DNA from: Octopus sinensis
Taxonomy: Eukaryota
Assembly: GCF_006345805.1 (NCBI RefSeq)
Contig: NC_043001.1
Span: forward strand, 11,470,001 to 11,534,000
DNA length: 64,000 bases
Direction: 5' to 3'
In this document: positions 3 through 64,000 of the stretch, piece by piece
Layout: every line of letters begins with the position of its first letter
How positions within the stretch are numbered: position 1 is the first letter of the stretch
Notes under the pieces: generated by a model
What the model was told of the DNA's origin: nothing
Seen by the model: only the letters and a program-made list of their open reading frames with translations
Database searches by the model: none
Translations under genes and position numbers: made by a program

Positions 3-76
3 TACATTATTTACATTTGACGGATATTTGTCCTCATCTTGTTTGTTCTTAACACAACGTTTCGTCTGATATACCC
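3..76 (-). repeat. Inverted partial copy of the hammerhead-containing tail at 505-578
   Basis: Reverse complement of 3-76 matches 505-578 (gggtatatcag.cgaaacgttgtgttaa.aacaaacaa.atgag.acaaatatccgtcaaatgtaaataatgta) with few mismatches. Confidence 0.9.
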
Positions 77-79
77 ACA

Positions 80-153
80 GGCATATGGCGTAGTGTTTAA
101 GAGCGCAGGCTATCAACCCCAAGAATACGAGTTTTATTCCAGGCAGTGACCTG

Positions 154-203
<50 letters not shown>

Positions 204-278
204 TAATAATAATAATGACAATAATAATAATAATAACAACAACAACAATAATTATAATAATAATAATGATGATGATAT

Positions 279-337
<59 letters not shown>

Positions 338-380
338 AATAACAACAACAACAATAATTATAATAGTAATAGTAATAATA

Positions 381-418
<38 letters not shown>

Positions 419-578
419 AATAATAACAATAACAACATCGAAATATATTTTAGGAATGAGAAGCCAGGTGAGAAATTTCTCGTAGGCACCTGATAAAGGT
501 TTGAGGGTATATCAGCCGAAACGTTGTGTTAACAACAAACAAAATGAGAACAAATATCCGTCAAATGTAAATAATGTA
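80..578 (+). mobile_element. SINE-like element: tRNA-like head + (AAT/GAT)n + hammerhead-bearing Penelope-type tail
   Basis: A-box-like tggcgtagtgtt (~86-97) and degenerate B-box gagttttattcc (~129-140). Microsatellite at 157-436, then a ~140-bp tail that recurs near 63623-63745 and 63968-64000. Confidence 0.65.
485..530 (+). ncRNA. Minimal type-I hammerhead ribozyme motif (this copy has G8A)
   Basis: GGCAC-CUGAUAA-A-GGUUU-loop-CAGCC-GAAA-CGUU-GUGUU. The paralog at 63665-63694 (-) supplies GACAC-CUGAUGA-A-GGCUG, which restores the core and stem II. Confidence 0.7.
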
Positions 579-1411: not shown

Positions 1412-1511
1412 NNNNNNNNNNNNNNNNNNNNNNNNNNNNNNNNNNNNNNNNNNNNNNNNNNNNNNNNNNNNNNNNNNNNNNNNNNNNNNNNNNNNNNNNN
1501 NNNNNNNNNNN
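1412..1511. other. Assembly gap (100 N)
   Basis: Run of exactly 100 n. Confidence 1.
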
Positions 1512-2659: not shown

Positions 2660-2975
2660 AGGCGCGTGGCTTAGTGGTTAGGGCATTCGGCTCACGATTG
2701 TAAGGTCGTGAGTTCGATTCCCGGCGACACGTTGTGTCCTTGAGCAAGACACTTTATTTCACGATGCTCCACTCCACTCAGCTGGCAAAAATGAGTTGTA
2801 CCTGTATTTAAAAGGGCCGGCATTGTCACACTCTGTGTCACGCTGAATCTCTCTGAGAACTACGTTACGGGTGCACGTGTCTGTGGATTTCTCAGTCACT
2901 TGCACGTTAATTTCACGAGCAGGCTATTCCATGATCGTGTCAGCTGGAACCTCGTCGTCGTAACCGACGGAGTAT
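2660..2975 (+). mobile_element. tRNA-headed SINE with alternative head and family-B 3' half
   Basis: A box tggcttagtgg, B box gagttcgattcc, central tgtgtccttgagcaagacac. From ~2797 it matches family B to ...gtcgtaaccgacggagt. Confidence 0.85.
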
Positions 2976-2982
2976 CCTATAG

Positions 2983-3043
<61 letters not shown>

Positions 3044-3064
3044 ATTGCGTGTGTGTGTGGTGGA

Positions 3065-28056: not shown

Positions 28057-28783
28057 CACCGGGCGAAATGCTAAGCGGTATTTCGTCTGCCGTTACGTTC
28101 TGAGTTCAAATTCAGCTGAGTTCGACTTTGCGTTTTCATCCTTTCGGGGTCGATTAAATAAGTACCATTTAGGCACTGGGGTCGATATAATCGACTTAAT
28201 CTGTTTGTCTGTCCTTGTTTGTCCTCTCTGTGTTTAGCCCCTTGTGGGTAGTAAAGAAATGGGTATTTCATCTGCCGTTACGTTCTGAGTTCAAATTCCG
28301 CCGAGGTCGACTTTGCCTTTCATCCTTTCGGTGTCGATTAAATAAGTACCAGTTACATGCTGGGGTCGATATAATCAACTTAATCCGTTTGTCTGTCCTT
28401 GTTTGTCCTCTCTGTGTTTAGCCCCTTGTGGGTAGTAAAGAAATAGGTATTTTGTCTGTTGTTACGTTCTGAGTTCAGATTCTGCCGAGGTCGACTTTGC
28501 CTTTCATCCTTTCGGGGTCGATTAAATAAGTACCAGTTACACGCTGGGGTCAATATAATCAACTTAATCCATTTGTCTGTCCTTGTTTGTCCTCTCTGTG
28601 TTTAGCCCCTTGCGGGTAGTAAAGAAATAGGTATTTCGTCTGCCGTTACGTTCTGAGCTCAAATTCCGCCGAGGTCGACTTTGCTGTTCATCCTTTCGGG
28701 GTCGATAAATGAAGTACCAGTTACACGCTGGGGTCGATATAATCAACTTAATCCCTTTGTCTGTCCTTGTTTGTCTCCTCTAT
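28057..28783 (+). mobile_element. SINE C tetramer (184-bp units)
   Basis: Unit starts at 28077, 28262, 28446 and 28630. Confidence 0.9.
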
Positions 28784-32553: not shown

Positions 32554-33152
32554 GGCGGCGAGTTGGCAGAAACGTTAGCGCGCCGGGCGAAATCCTAAGC
32601 AGTATTTCGTCTGCGGTTACGTTCTGAGCTCAAATTCCGCCGAGGTCGATATTGCCTATCATCCTTTCGGGATCGATAAATAAAGTACCAGTTTCGCTCT
32701 GAGGTCGATGTTATCGAATTAATCCCTTTGTTTGTCCTTGTTTGTCCCCTTTATGTTTAGCCCCTTGTGGGCAATAAAGAAATAGGTATTTCGTCTGCCG
32801 TTACGTTCTGAGCTCAAATTCCGCCGAGATCGACTTTGCCTTTCATCCTTTCGGGGTCGATAAATAAAGTACAAGTTTCGCTCTGAGGTCGATGTAATCG
32901 ACTTAATCCCTTTGTCTGTCTTCGTTTGTCCCCTGTATGTTTAGCCCCTTGTGAGCAATAAAGAAATAGGTATTCCGTCTGCCGTTACGTTCTGAGCTCA
33001 AATTCTGCCGAAGTCGACTTTGCCCTTCATTCGTTCGGGGTCGATAAATAAAGTACCAGTTTCGCACTTGGGTCGATGTAATCAACTTAATCTCTTTGTT
33101 TGTCCTTGTTTCTCCCCTCTATATTTAGCCCCTTATGGGTAATAAAGAAATA
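32554..33152 (+). mobile_element. SINE C trimer with 13-bp TSD
   Basis: Units at 32601, 32785 and 32969. tatatttgatatc at 32536-32548 and 33153-33165. Confidence 0.9.
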
Positions 33153-33475
33153 TATATTTGATATCAGCTTTGAAAAGATAAAATTTGGCCGCGATTGGGT
33201 TTGAACTCACGGTACGGACTAACATCTTTTCCACTGCACCGCGCTTGATAGTTGATAGATGAGATGCTGAAATACAGAGGTAAGCGATAATGCGCGGTAC
33301 AGCCATTCCATATCATGCCGTATCTGTCATCTTCCCCTATGATGGATTCTTAGGTTTCTCTCCATTCTTTGCTACATTAAAAAAGAAAAAACAAAAGTAA
33401 AAGAAATGAAAATAAATTCAGTTTAAGCAAAGGCAAGAGAAAGCAAGGAGGAATACAATGCAGAGAGTAGGGGAC

Positions 33476-37152: not shown

Positions 37153-37368
37153 GTCTTGCCGGAAGAACGTGTGCCTGTTATTCAAATTTTGAAATTAGGA
37201 ACTGAAAAATAAGCATCCGCCTCTTATGAGCCTCGGGACTCATAAGACCGAGACCCAATCTGGTTTCTATGGTGCATAAGTGATTGAGCGTACAACACTG
37301 CTCTTGAACGGGACGTCAGTCCGTCGAAGGGCTAACTTCACTGCAATTGTTTGAACTCATTCACTGCT

Positions 37369-38244
37369 GTTTTGGGTTTTTAAGAGAAAAGGATATGATC
37401 TGAAACTGGTTTGGCAGCGATTTTTAGCAGAGCGAGAAACTACGTAGCGCTGGGTTACGTTTCACCAAGGGCAATGTTTTGGGTTTTTAAGAGAAAAGGA
37501 TATGATCTGAAACTGGTTTGGCAGCGATTTTTAGCAGAGCAGGAAACTACGTAGCGCTGGGTTACGTTTCACCAAGGGCAATATTTTGAGTTTTTAAGAG
37601 AAAAGGATATGATCTGAAACTGGTTTGGCAGCGATTTTTAGCAGAGCGAGAAACTACGTAGCGCTGTGTTACATTTCACCAAGGGCAATGTTTTGGGTTT
37701 TTAAGAGAAAAGGATATGATCTGAAACTGGTTTGGCAGCGATTTTTAGCCGAGCAGGAAACTACGTAGCGCTGGGTTAGAAACTTAGATAAAACTTAGAT
37801 ATGTTTCGACCAGAGATTGGTCCAGGCCATGTCTAACTTAATAGCACATCAAGGGCAATGTTTTGGGTTTTTAAGAGAAAAGGATATGATCTGAAACTGG
37901 TTTGGCAGCGATTTTTAGCAGAGCGAGAAACTACGTAGCGCTGTGTTACATTTCACCAAGGGCAATGTTTTGGGTTTTTAAGAGAAAAGGATATGATCTG
38001 AAACTGGTTTGGCAGCGATTTTTAGCCGAGCAGGAAACTACGTAGCGCTGGGTTAGAAACTTAGATAAAACTTAGATATGTTTCGACCAGAGATTGGTCC
38101 AGGCCATGTCTAACTTAATAGCACACCAAGGGCAATGTTTTGGGTTTTTAAGAGAAAAGGATATGATCTGAAACTGGTTTGGCAGCGATTTTTAGCAGAG
38201 CGAGAAACTACGTAGCGCTGTGTTACATTTCACCAAGGGCAATG
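37369..38244 (+). repeat. Tandem array of seven 107/170-bp units
   Basis: Starts at 37369, 37476, 37583, 37690, 37860, 37967 and 38137. Units 4 and 6 carry the same extra ~63 bp. Confidence 0.92.
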
Positions 38245-38858
38245 TTTAACGGACACGTTTCTTTATATGTTTCTTACTGACTTGCTCGAACGTCAGATAA
38301 ACTCGGTCGTTATTTTTCATTTATATTACACCTTTAACCCTTTTTAATGTTACCCGAATTAACACGAATAAATTTTACGTTTTTTTTTTTAACTATAATC
38401 TTCCGCTGTGAAACGAAGTGTTTTATTGAAAAGCACATAGCACATCTTAGTATTTGAATCGAAACCACTATCGTAAGATCGTAGATGCAGAAAGCTAACT
38501 ACGGAGCAACGAGTCTCCGCTGCATGTTATTTCCATTTTAAATACTCTGTTTTATCGTCACTTCAAACTAGCAGTAACTTCGATCATTTCCTTTTTTTCT
38601 CTCACAAATTAGTAATTATAATGTATAATGCCAAATACGTCAGATTCTTTGCAGTTATTTCATACAAGAACATACGTACAAATAAACAATTATGAAAATG
38701 TAAACAACTCGTTTGAACAATAAAATGACGAGGAGATGGTTACTGATGAGAGGAAAAGGAAAAAGCTTCAGGACGAAACAAAAAATAAGCTTGATGTAGA
38801 TGCTTTATACGTGGGATTACCTGTCACAAGTATGTATATATATATATATGCTAATATG

Positions 38859-48784: not shown

Positions 48785-49712
48785 TTGGTTTTAAATGTCG
48801 CCACAAGACCAGTAATTTCGAGGTGGGGGTGGTTAAGTCGACTACATAGTGTGCGACTGGAGGGAAGGCAAAGTCAACGTCAACGGGTTTCGAACTCGGA
48901 ATGTAAAGCCGCACTATATTTTTCTCAGCATGCTAACGATTCTTATTTCTTTATTGCCCACAAGGGGCTAAACATAGAGGGGACAAACAAAGACAGACAA
49001 ATGGATTAAGTCGATTACATCGACCCCAGTGTGCAACTGGTATATAATTTATCGACCCCGAAAGGATGAAAGGCAAAGTCGACCTCGGTGGAATTTGAAC
49101 TCAGAACGTAGCGGCAGACGAAATACCCATTTCTTTACTACCCACGAGGGGCTAAACACAGAGAGGACAAACAAGGACAGAAAAAAGGATTAAATTGATT
49201 ATATCGACCCCAGTGCGTAACTATTACTTATTTAATCGATCCTGAAAGGATGAAAGGCAAAGTCGACCTCGGTGGAATTTGAACTCAGAACGTAGCGACA
49301 GACGAAATATCCATTTCTTTACTACTCACAAGGGGATAAACACAGAGAGGACAAACAAGGACAGACAAACGGATTAAATCGATTATATCGATCCAAGTGC
49401 AAAACTGGTCCTTAATTTATCGATCCCGAAAGGATGAAAAACAAAGTCGACTTCGGCGGAATTTGAACTCAGAACGTAAAGACAGGCTAAGCATTTCGCC
49501 CGGCGTGCTAACGATTCTGCTAGCTCGCCGCCCTCTAGATCAGTAATATTGGTTTCGAATTTTAGCACAAGGCCAGCAATTACGTCCACTGGTACTTATT
49601 TTCATCGACCCCGAAGGGATGAAAAGCAAAGTCGACCTCGGACTCAGAATATAAAGACTCGAAATGGCGCTAAGCATTTTTCGCCGTCGTGCTACCGATT
49701 CTGCCAGCTCGC
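48785..49712 (-). mobile_element. SINE C trimer (48944-49532) flanked by older C-related fragments
   Basis: Three ~184-bp units on the minus strand plus diverged copies with an alternative tail. Confidence 0.85.
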
Positions 49713-57747: not shown

Positions 57748-58550
57748 GGAAGCACTCCGTCGGTTACGACGACGAGGGTTCCGGTTGATGCGAATCAACG
57801 GAACAGCCTGCTCGTGAAATTAACGTGTAAGTGGCTGAGCACTCCACAGACACATGCACCCTTAACGTAGTTCTCGGGGATATTCAGCGTGACACAGAGA
57901 GTGACAAAGCCGGCCCCTTGAAAGTACCAGTTATGCACTGGGATCAATGTAATCGACTTAATCCGTTTGCCTGTACTTGTGTGTTCCCTCTGTGTTTAGT
58001 CCCTTGTGGGTAGTAAAGAAATAGGTATTTCCTCTGCTGCTACGTTCTGAGTTCAAATTCCGCGGAGGTCGATTTTGCCTTTCATCCATTCGGGGTCGAT
58101 TAAATAAGTACCAGTTACGCACTGGGGTCGATGTAATCGACTTAATCCGTTTGTCTGTCCTTCTTTGTTCCCTCTGTGTTTAGCCCCTAGTGGGTAGTAA
58201 AGGAATAGGTATTTCGTCTGCCGTTACCTTGTGAGTTCAAATTCCGCGGAGGTCGACTTTGCCTTTCATCCTTTCTGGGTCGATAAATTAAGTACCAGTT
58301 ACGCACTGGGATCAAAGTAATCGAATTAATTCCTTTGTCTGTCATTGTTTGTCCCCGCTATGTTTAGCCCCTTGTGGGTAGTAAAGAAATAAGAAACGTT
58401 AGCAAGCTAGACGAAATGCTTTGCGTTATTTTGTCTGTCTTTGCGTTCTGAGTTCAAATTCAACCGAGGTCGACTTTGCCTTTCATCATTTCGGGGTCGA
58501 TAAATTAAGTATCAGTTGCGTAATGGGGACGATATAATCGACTGAACCAA
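57748..58550. mobile_element. SINE B 3' half (-) joined to a headless SINE C array (+)
   Basis: B tail at 57748-57922; C units at 57923-58550. Confidence 0.85.
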
Positions 58551-63540: not shown

Positions 63541-63622
63541 AATTGCTGTTGTTGCATATTCGACAATGTCCAATCACTACTCACTCTATTCATCGATATT
63601 GATCTTCAAGGACTAAACGCCT

Positions 63623-64000
63623 TATACATTATTTACATTTGACGGATATTGTCCTCATTATGTTTGATATACCCTCCAGCCTTCATCAGGTGTCTTGGAG
63701 AATTTCGAACTCGGGTTCTCATTCCTAAGGTATTTTTCGATGTTATTATTATTATTATTATTATATTATTATTATTATTATTATTATTTTTTTTTTTTTT
63801 TTTCTTCTTTCAAATTTGGTTCCATTTCTTGCCGAGTGTCTTCCCGACTCCTAGGGCAAGGAAACTCATAGTATACATTGGTAGACCATTAAACTAAACT
63901 CAATAGTTCGTTCATTTTTTTTTTAAGTTAAATTAAAATACATTATTATTGAAGAAGAAGAAAAAGATCGAAAAATACCTCAGGAATGAGAACCCAAGTT
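63623..64000. mobile_element. Second locus of the hammerhead-tail element, again as an inverted pair
   Basis: Minus copy at 63623-63790 includes gacacctgatgaaggctggagggtatatca and (AAT)n. A plus copy starts at ~63968 (atcgaaaaatacctcaggaatgagaaccca) and runs off the window. Confidence 0.8.

What the first reader, a model, noticed from the sequence alone, without database searches (positions are those of the whole stretch)
3..578. Candidate 'hammerhead SINE': tRNA-like Pol III head joined to a Penelope-type hammerhead tail, with an inverted 5' copy of its own end
Seen: A/B-box head (80-145), AAT/GAT tract, a ~140-bp tail holding a minimal type-I hammerhead (485-530), and directly upstream an inverted, 5'-truncated copy of that tail (3-76). 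The tail recurs at 63623-64000, also as an inverted pair. Combining copies gives an intact core: GACAC-CUGAUGA-A-GGCUG/CAGCC-GAAA-CGUU-GUGUU. Known: Penelope-like elements carry minimal hammerheads in their pLTRs and often integrate with an inverted truncated pLTR, whereas SINEs normally borrow LINE tails. Inference: a Pol III-transcribed non-autonomous retroelement mobilised by a Penelope RT. Caveats: only one headed copy is in this window, and no single copy has a perfect core.
Basis: partly seen in the sequence, partly recalled or inferred. Interest (0 to 1): 0.8.

Follow-up and report, generated by a model that had tools for sequence, protein, structure and literature searches.

The report
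Penelope retrotransposon end carrying tRNA promoter
The supposed 'hammerhead SINE' is the end repeat of a protein-coding Penelope-type jumping gene, copied on its own thousands of times, and its tRNA-derived front likely let RNA polymerase III read the element, which would be unusual for a protein-coding retrotransposon.

Summary
Together they are the pseudo-LTR (pLTR) of an autonomous Penelope/Poseidon-type element in this genome. Its RT plus GIY-YIG-type ORF is followed about 30 nt later by the tRNA-like head, (AAT)n and the tail. The tail is the in-frame start of the same ORF, hammerhead included. No majority base differs between solo and ORF-linked copies. Head-to-head doubling, one long plus one short 3' end (41 of 45 pairs) and 8-13 bp target duplications (27 of 45) are known Penelope signatures. 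The unusual part is the tRNA head. 36 of 40 arms that reach it stop there, A/B boxes sit in tRNA register, and the ~2.7 kb sense strand has no TTTT terminator (P 0.007-0.19 by null model). This suggests, but does not show, Pol III transcription of an autonomous retrotransposon that sheds SINE-like copies of itself. A hairpin at the same site is a live alternative. The window copy is dead: B box and ribozyme core are mutated.

The parts
3..76 (-). Inverted, 5'-truncated arm of the pLTR; continues 38 nt beyond the window start and carries the long 3' end there
   Evidence: L001 1031-1144
74..153 (+). tRNA-derived head of the pLTR (tRNA position 1 = window 79); the 5' junction lies at the site where most copies start
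86..96 (+). A box (tRNA position 8 onward; last G mutated in this copy)
   Evidence: sequence
131..140 (+). B box at tRNA positions 53-62; C56 and G57 mutated to T here, so likely inactive
   Evidence: sequence
156..432 (+). (AAT/GAT/AAC)n tract, expanded here; 1-196 nt in most other copies
433..578 (+). 'Tail' = 5' coding end of the Penelope ORF (ATG at 456-458; one stop by decay in this copy)
485..530 (+). Minimal type-I hammerhead inside the coding frame: stem I 485-489/526-530, core 490-496 (G8 to A here), extra A 497, stem II 498-502/513-517, GAAA 518-521, predicted cut after 525
   Evidence: Rfam gives no hit
569..578 (+). Short 3' end (one of the two inferred RT start sites)
63614..63625 (+). 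Left copy of a 12-bp target-site duplication of the second insertion (right copy at L420 850-861, outside the window)
63625..63744 (-). Second insertion, left arm: headless, short 3' end, 23-nt deletion through the 3' half of the hammerhead
63964..64000 (+). Second insertion, right arm (start); continues beyond the window to the long 3' end and the TSD

Best explanation
The element is a solo, head-to-head doubled copy of the pseudo-LTR of an autonomous Penelope/Poseidon-type retrotransposon, whose tRNA-derived head likely served as an internal Pol III promoter and whose enzyme likely began reverse transcription at two fixed sites inside the tail. Shown: the unit order ORF - ~30-nt UTR - tRNA head - (AAT)n - ATG - hammerhead - two 3' end sites - rest of ORF; one long and one short end per doubled insertion; 8-13 bp duplications; 5' ends piled up at the head start; no TTTT on the sense strand. 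Inferred: RNA starts a few nt before the head. The first RT start site, with its natural ORF continuation, lies only ~280 nt downstream, so priming there would give a SINE-sized cDNA that ends at the RNA 5' end. Short copies would thus be by-products in cis of the autonomous transcript, and priming at a later tandem pLTR would give ORF-bearing copies. A staggered double-strand cut would prime one cDNA from each site, and the two would be joined head to head. The template is uncleaved RNA, so the ribozyme is likely not needed for insertion. I put the pLTR identity at about 0.97; the confidence given covers the whole chain including Pol III.
For: pLTR identity: copies run upstream of the head into a GIY-YIG-type C-terminus; 26 of 29 ORF-3'-selected loci continue into head and tail; pLTR-ORF-pLTR and tandem copies exist. 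Tail-encoded residues align with the N-terminus of an unrelated database protein (47% over 350 aa), and a 551-aa stop-free frame is 36% identical to an Anolis 836-aa protein through RT and endonuclease. The tail's length variants differ by 9 nt and keep the frame (29 and 16 of 50 arms). Insertion mechanism: 41 of 45 pairs are long+short and none is long+long; duplications of 8 nt or more in 27 of 45 versus 0.8% of 1,007 mismatched flank pairs. This matches the two internal RT start sites and two-strand nicking shown in vitro for Anolis Poseidon (PMC11167929). RNA start at the head: 36 of 40 arms reaching it end at -17..+11, against 0.26-0.54% per nt truncation in the ORF; 4 of 6 ORF-bearing loci that reach the head also stop there; estimated ~14,000 head starts versus ~2,000 copies of the UTR just upstream. 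Pol III: boxes at tRNA positions 8 and 53 while the cloverleaf has decayed; 0 runs of 4 or more T in 2,391 majority columns and 0.26 per kb in 108 natural segments, versus 1.3-4.6 per kb in other Penelope-type ORFs of this genome; P(0) = 0.018 by synonymous shuffle and 0.007 with relatives' codon usage; 13 of 14 relative loci have T4 in the UTR.
Against: No RNA evidence: only assembled contigs were available. The T4 gap is weak under Markov nulls (P 0.10 and 0.19), G4 runs are also absent, and single natural segments are not significant; 5 of 52 relatives have a T4-free ORF stretch, including a family with a T-rich UTR and no tRNA head. A hairpin of about -14 kcal/mol spans the head start and ranks among the stronger ones in 2 of 3 copies tested, so an RT stop or snap-back could also pile up ends there. 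The head scores only 13.3 bits against Rfam tRNA (E 6.3, cut-off 29). How an uncapped Pol III RNA would be translated is unexplained. One pair (L177) looks truly short+short. The two characterised Penelope-type promoters named in PMC8557442 overlap a spliceosomal intron, which points to Pol II (my inference).
Confidence: 0.55

Rival explanations
1. Same Penelope pLTR, but the tRNA piece is a passenger (an old captured SINE or tRNA fragment). RNA comes from Pol II or read-through, and 5' ends pile up because RT stops or snaps back at the hairpin across the head start, or because the tRNA-like fold is cut by RNase P.
For: Hairpin from -18 to +21; fold-back junctions in 13 of 84 head junctions; T4 absence not significant under order-1 and order-2 Markov nulls; palindromes at pLTR 5' ends are described for rotifer Penelopes without tRNA (PMC3846280 passages); known Penelope-type promoters overlap introns (PMC8557442 passages).
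Against: Equal or stronger hairpins in the ORF do not stop 90% of cDNAs; many ends lie upstream of the hairpin apex and of tRNA position 1 (-7 to -1), where a Pol III start is expected and an RNase P cut is not; boxes are kept in register; most relatives' UTRs carry T4 runs.
Confidence: 0.3
2. One reading: an independent non-autonomous SINE lineage, transcribed by Pol III from solo copies and mobilised in trans by the Penelope enzyme.
For: Solo headed copies outnumber ORF-linked ones about sevenfold; some allele frequencies differ between solo and ORF-linked sets (9 tail and 5 head columns at p<0.01); partner arms share more variants than chance (17 versus mean 7.0, maximum 19 in 2,000 permutations), so there were several source sequences; pLTRs can act in trans (PMC3846280 passages).
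Against: No diagnostic majority difference, and the frequency differences are partly produced by how loci were picked; the head is part of the autonomous unit; solo copies lack the ORF sequence beyond the long end, which Anolis Poseidon needs on its template in vitro (PMC11167929).
Confidence: 0.13
3. Chance nesting of a tRNA SINE and a Penelope fragment in an AAT microsatellite.
For: Other repeats do insert into the AAT tract, and 3 of 30 head-selected loci lack a colinear tail.
Against: 27 of 30 are colinear, with fixed order and fixed spacing to the ORF stop.
Confidence: 0.01

Closest known systems
Poseidon of Anolis carolinensis, PAc (PMC11167929)
   Same: RT plus C-terminal GIY-YIG ORF; pLTR made of 3' UTR and 5' coding sequence; hammerhead overlapping the ORF start; two internal RT start sites giving an optional 3' 'tail'; uncleaved RNA as template. 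The family's protein is 36% identical to an Anolis 836-aa protein that I take to be PAc-like from its length and start; that identity was not verified.
   Different: A tRNA-derived A/B-box head and an (AAT)n tract inside the pLTR, a T4-free sense strand, and a 5'-end pile-up at the head; none of these is mentioned in the parts of the paper I read.
Adineta vaga Penelopes, e.g. Pen2a_Av (PMC3846280)
   Same: ~200-300 bp pLTRs including the first codons, inverted 5' pLTR, 31-bp tail on one end, 8-10 bp TSD, palindromes at junctions, solo pLTRs.
   Different: TATA/Inr-like promoter proposed there; tRNA boxes here.
Schistosoma SINE-like hammerhead elements Sm-alpha / Sj-alpha (as described in review PMC6765202; original papers not held)
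   Same: Pol III promoter followed by a type-I hammerhead: a 'hammerhead SINE' is therefore not new as such.
   Different: Those are described as non-coding tandem repeats freed by cleavage. This one is dispersed, inserts as inverted pairs, is copied uncleaved, and is the coding end of an autonomous element.
Animal non-LTR retrozymes (bioRxiv 10.64898/2026.07.22.740005)
   Same: Short hammerhead-bearing repeats derived from Penelope pLTRs.
   Different: Defined by head-to-tail tandems of two or more hammerhead units; here the copies are head-to-head, carry a tRNA head and show no divergence from the parent pLTR.
tRNA-derived SINEs (SINE2); Cassandra TRIMs with 5S in their LTRs (both recalled, not tested)
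   Same: Pol III-type internal promoter on a retroposed unit; Cassandra is the nearest recalled case of a Pol III cassette inside a terminal repeat.
   Different: SINEs are separate non-coding families that share only a 3' end with a LINE; Cassandra is non-coding and LTR-type.

Membership tests
Endonuclease-bearing Penelope-like elements (Penelope/Poseidon type) | Single ORF with Penelope-type RT | tested here: met
   RVT_1 E 3e-6; 29 homologues at E<=1e-20; 786 of 787 majority codons open in one frame; no intact natural copy found, longest stop-free frame 551 aa
Endonuclease-bearing Penelope-like elements (Penelope/Poseidon type) | C-terminal GIY-YIG endonuclease | tested here: met
   Aligns through the endonuclease region of the Anolis protein. 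Pfam GIY-YIG gives no hit on the decayed copy or on the Anolis protein, and only E 0.23 on P0005, so this rests on homology
Endonuclease-bearing Penelope-like elements (Penelope/Poseidon type) | pLTRs from partial tandems; inverted 5'-truncated copy; 30-40 bp tail on one end; short TSD | tested here: met
   against PMC8557442 and PMC3846280 passages
Endonuclease-bearing Penelope-like elements (Penelope/Poseidon type) | Placement in the Poseidon clade by phylogeny | tested here: inconclusive
   A quick tree groups it with P0001-P0009 (support 100) in a radiation that includes the Anolis protein, apart from two other Penelope-type families of this genome; no clade-labelled references; the careful search did not finish
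Minimal type-I hammerhead of PLEs (PMC4209133) | Core CUGANGA/GAAA/NUH, short helix I, extra nucleotide between 9 and 10.1, G10.1-C11.1, palindromic 15.2-16.2 | tested here: met
   Majority and natural copies; the frequent non-CpG variant in the core falls on the free position 7; window copy not met (G8 to A)
Minimal type-I hammerhead of PLEs (PMC4209133) | Self-cleavage (dimeric or protein-assisted) | not testable with these tools
   The monomer MFE fold is not the active fold (-13.6 versus -12.2 kcal/mol) and is not unusual against shuffles (z -1.1)
tRNA-derived SINE (SINE2) | tRNA-related head with A and B boxes | tested here: met
   Boxes in register; best of 29 genomic tRNA sequences is Ile(AAT), score 42 versus 38 next and 35 for the best shuffle (the Ile genes came from a targeted search, so the isotype is tentative); Rfam 13.3 bits only
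tRNA-derived SINE (SINE2) | Separate non-autonomous family sharing only its 3' end with the partner | tested here: not met
   The whole unit, head included, is part of the autonomous element, and no majority differences exist
tRNA-derived SINE (SINE2) | Transcription by Pol III | tested here: inconclusive
   Indirect only: 5' pile-up and T4 absence; no raw RNA reads
Non-LTR retrozymes | Head-to-tail tandem of hammerhead units | tested here: not met
   Neighbouring arms in the sampled loci are head-to-head; tandem arrays were not searched genome-wide

The most novel reading that the evidence does not exclude
[quoted passage not shown] Because reverse transcription starts internally, it sheds its own SINE-sized copies in cis: a built-in SINE and a possible route from Penelope elements to hammerhead SINEs. 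L314 may be a second, independent case.
Probability: 0.35. Interest if true: 0.8.

Novelty: new variant of a known kind. Interest (0 to 1): 0.6.

Why it matters
The element corrects an annotation trap: a repeat of order 10^4 copies that looks like a tRNA SINE is the end of a Penelope element. The near-obligate long+short pairing with duplications gives genomic support for two-site, two-strand priming, so far shown in vitro for one element. If the Pol III reading holds, it is a protein-coding retroelement on a polymerase normally confined to short non-coding RNA, it raises the question of how its uncapped RNA is translated, and it offers an origin for Pol III hammerhead SINEs such as the schistosome ones. 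That reading is cheap to test.

Tried and rejected
Rfam (gathering on the window; E<=2 on 13 loci; E<=10 on two short stretches) found no hammerhead family and only a sub-threshold tRNA match. A Pfam GIY-YIG genome search returned other Penelope-type families, and none of the 50 loci examined shares the head or tail; the parent was found instead by reading upstream of position-ordered copies. Templates produced by ribozyme cleavage were rejected: 0 of 128 arms start between tail positions 73 and 110, with the cut at 93. A start codon at the core's own AUG was rejected (closed frame); the open frame starts 34 nt earlier. Contigs from 4 of 24 listed runs cover head and tail, but two are only guessed to be RNA and contigs show no starts or ends, so they are no evidence of expression. 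A random 400 kb sample held too few copies (3 tail loci) for more than an order of magnitude. Metagenome relatives were too distant (29-55%) to test tRNA head against T4 absence; the closest relatives are proteins without DNA. Covariation within the family was not attempted because copies decay neutrally. Searches of earlier scan notes by sequence, words and place found nothing on this family.

Full report
OBSERVATION. The window lies in a 2.72-Gb genome. From recalled look-alike repeats I read it as an octopus; no call names it. The family is abundant. A 33-nt string covering the ribozyme core and stem II occurs exactly 1,997 times. 13 of 125 arms not selected on that string keep it exactly, which gives roughly 19,000 arms (about 12,000-35,000). 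A random 400 kb held 3 tail loci, the same order. Head and tail travel together: 27 of 30 head-selected and 20 of 30 tail-selected loci. The stretch is held by public runs under three organism labels.

WHAT IT IS. In the first 30 position-ordered core matches, several copies continued upstream of the head into shared sequence that translates to a Penelope-type endonuclease C-terminus. Walking upstream gave RT motifs and then copies of the form pLTR-ORF-pLTR or partial tandem. Of 29 loci picked on the ORF's 3' part, 26 continue into head and tail (L212 and L213 are duplicates, and L201 was read after correcting my strand label). Of 30 loci picked on the tail/ORF junction, 28 show the tail directly before the ORF (the query held 48 nt of tail, so this shows continuity, not frequency). 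The ORF starts at an ATG 24 nt into the tail and runs through the hammerhead in frame. L264 is stop-free for 401 aa, and window 456-578 gives the same N-terminus with one stop. An unrelated database protein, P0005, aligns from this tail-encoded stretch onward (47% over 350 aa). The family is the top genomic match to an Anolis 836-aa protein. Copies are decayed: mean column identity is 92.6% in the ORF, and no sampled copy is intact. Solo and ORF-linked pLTRs do not differ in any majority base. So the 'SINE' is this element's pLTR.

INSERTION ANATOMY. Doubled insertions are head to head. One arm ends at the short site and the other about 30 nt further on: 31 of 37 pairs by one method, with 6 unclassified, and 41 of 45 by a second. 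No pair is long+long. Of the 4 scored short+short, 3 show a decayed long end on inspection and L177 looks genuine. Flanks share an exact repeat of 8-13 nt in 27 of 45 pairs versus 0.8% of mismatched pairs. The window's second insertion has a 12-bp duplication; the first has none recognisable. Partner arms share more variants than shuffled partners (17 versus 7.0), a modest sign of a common source. All of this fits published Penelope anatomy (PMC8557442, PMC3846280) and the in vitro result that Anolis Poseidon nicks both strands and starts RT at two internal sites that define the tail (PMC11167929). That each insertion uses both sites once is my inference from the pairing.

RIBOZYME. The majority motif has the features listed for minimal PLE hammerheads (PMC4209133), with a GUU cut site. 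32 of 79 arms not selected on the core keep it. The frequent non-CpG variant within the core is at the free position 7. No arm begins at the cut site (0 of 128), so uncleaved RNA was copied, as reported for Poseidon. Activity is untested, and minimal motifs were inactive as monomers in PMC4209133. The window copy has G8 changed to A.

THE tRNA HEAD. It aligns to Rfam tRNA positions 8-63 in register but weakly, and is closest to tRNA-Ile(AAT) among 29 genomic tRNA sequences (tentative). A and B boxes match the recalled consensus while the stems have decayed. 5' ends: of 99 arms from loci not selected on the head, 15 end in the tail, 31 in the AAT tract, 13 inside the head, 36 at -17..+11 and 4 upstream. 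Many junctions lie at -7..-1. Exact 18-mers give 1,976 head starts and 1,172 UTR sites; corrected for retention (15 of 107 and 39 of 66) these are about 14,000 and 2,000. ORF-bearing copies that reach the head stop there in 4 of 6 loci. The sense strand has no run of four T in 2,391 ORF columns, nor in UTR, head or tail. Other Penelope-type ORFs in this genome have 1.3-4.6 per kb, and 52 metagenome relatives average 2.8 per kb, 5 of them zero. Significance depends on the null: P 0.009, 0.10 and 0.19 for Markov orders 0-2; 0.018 and 0.007 for codon-aware nulls. 13 of 14 relative loci, about six families by eye, have T4 between ORF and ribozyme; two of the 14 matched a doubtful motif. The exception, L314, has an A/B-box-like stretch followed by AAT in its UTR and two T4 but no T5 per 2.8-kb unit; Rfam sees no tRNA there, so it is a lead only. 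Against Pol III: a hairpin spans the head start, and no RNA ends could be read.

MECHANISM AND ODDS. Best reading (0.55): Pol III-type start at the head, internal RT initiation, solo pLTRs shed in cis. Passenger head with a hairpin stop: 0.30. Independent trans-mobilised SINE: 0.13; this does not exclude some solo copies having acted as sources.

LITERATURE SEEN. PMC11167929: parts 1-2 of 4 (abstract, main text, start of methods). bioRxiv 10.64898/2026.07.22.740005: parts 1-3 of 5 (main text; supplements not seen). PMC4209133: passages and section 8. PMC8557442, PMC3846280, PMC6765202 and PMC8967140: passages. PMC13282606: passages and a term search of its supplement, with no 'hammerhead' or 'Pol III'. 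PMC108972 and PMC5785218 were not held, so nothing was seen of them. Ten searches listed no paper describing a Penelope element with a tRNA-derived pLTR or Pol III transcription, judged from listings and the passages above. Most subscription papers and Repbase, Dfam and SINEBase were out of reach, so the family may already carry a name as a Penelope or as a SINE.

VERDICT. Real, and largely a known kind (a Penelope pLTR). The tRNA-promoter architecture is a new variant with a testable and surprising possible meaning. Interest 0.6.

Noticed in passing
L314 (metagenome contig), 2760-3050 and whole unit: Tandem Poseidon-like element (41% identity in RT) with an A/B-box-like stretch followed by AAT in its 3' UTR, a similar hammerhead overlapping its start codon, and no T5 run; a possible second Pol III-type case, not supported by Rfam.
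   Followed up: partly
ORF-linked copies, head positions -18 to -3 (e.g. L208): The UTR just upstream of the head resembles a decayed inverted copy of the head's first ~20 nt, as if a fold-back junction became fixed in the element.
   Followed up: partly
L257, L268, L277, about 450 nt into the ORF: Three independent copies break at the same AT-rich site and resume at different downstream points; a self-insertion hot spot or, less likely, a splice donor, which would favour Pol II.
   Followed up: partly
window 63789-63950: About 160 nt of unrelated, T-run-led sequence between the two arms of the second insertion; perhaps a later insertion into the TTA tract.
   Followed up: no
L006, L176, L185: The 3' end of another coding repeat abuts the AAT tract in place of the head; recalled as a Dong/R4-type LINE that targets such tracts, not tested.
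   Followed up: no
L149 and related loci L105-L130: A different, apparently young Penelope-type family with an intact 781-aa ORF (many equal-scoring copies) and a hammerhead-like motif with an altered core about 600-1,200 nt downstream.
   Followed up: partly
L119 and L149 (about 468 and 1039, minus strand); L131 about 6020: Further hammerhead-like motifs in other repeats of this genome.
   Followed up: no
window 28077-28775, 32602-33159, 48945-49485, 57922-58391: Four tandem arrays of a related 184-bp unit (2.6-3.8 copies).
   Followed up: no
window 37368-38247: Near-identical 107/277-bp tandem repeat (95-99% match).
   Followed up: no
window 1412-1511: A 100-N stretch.
   Followed up: no
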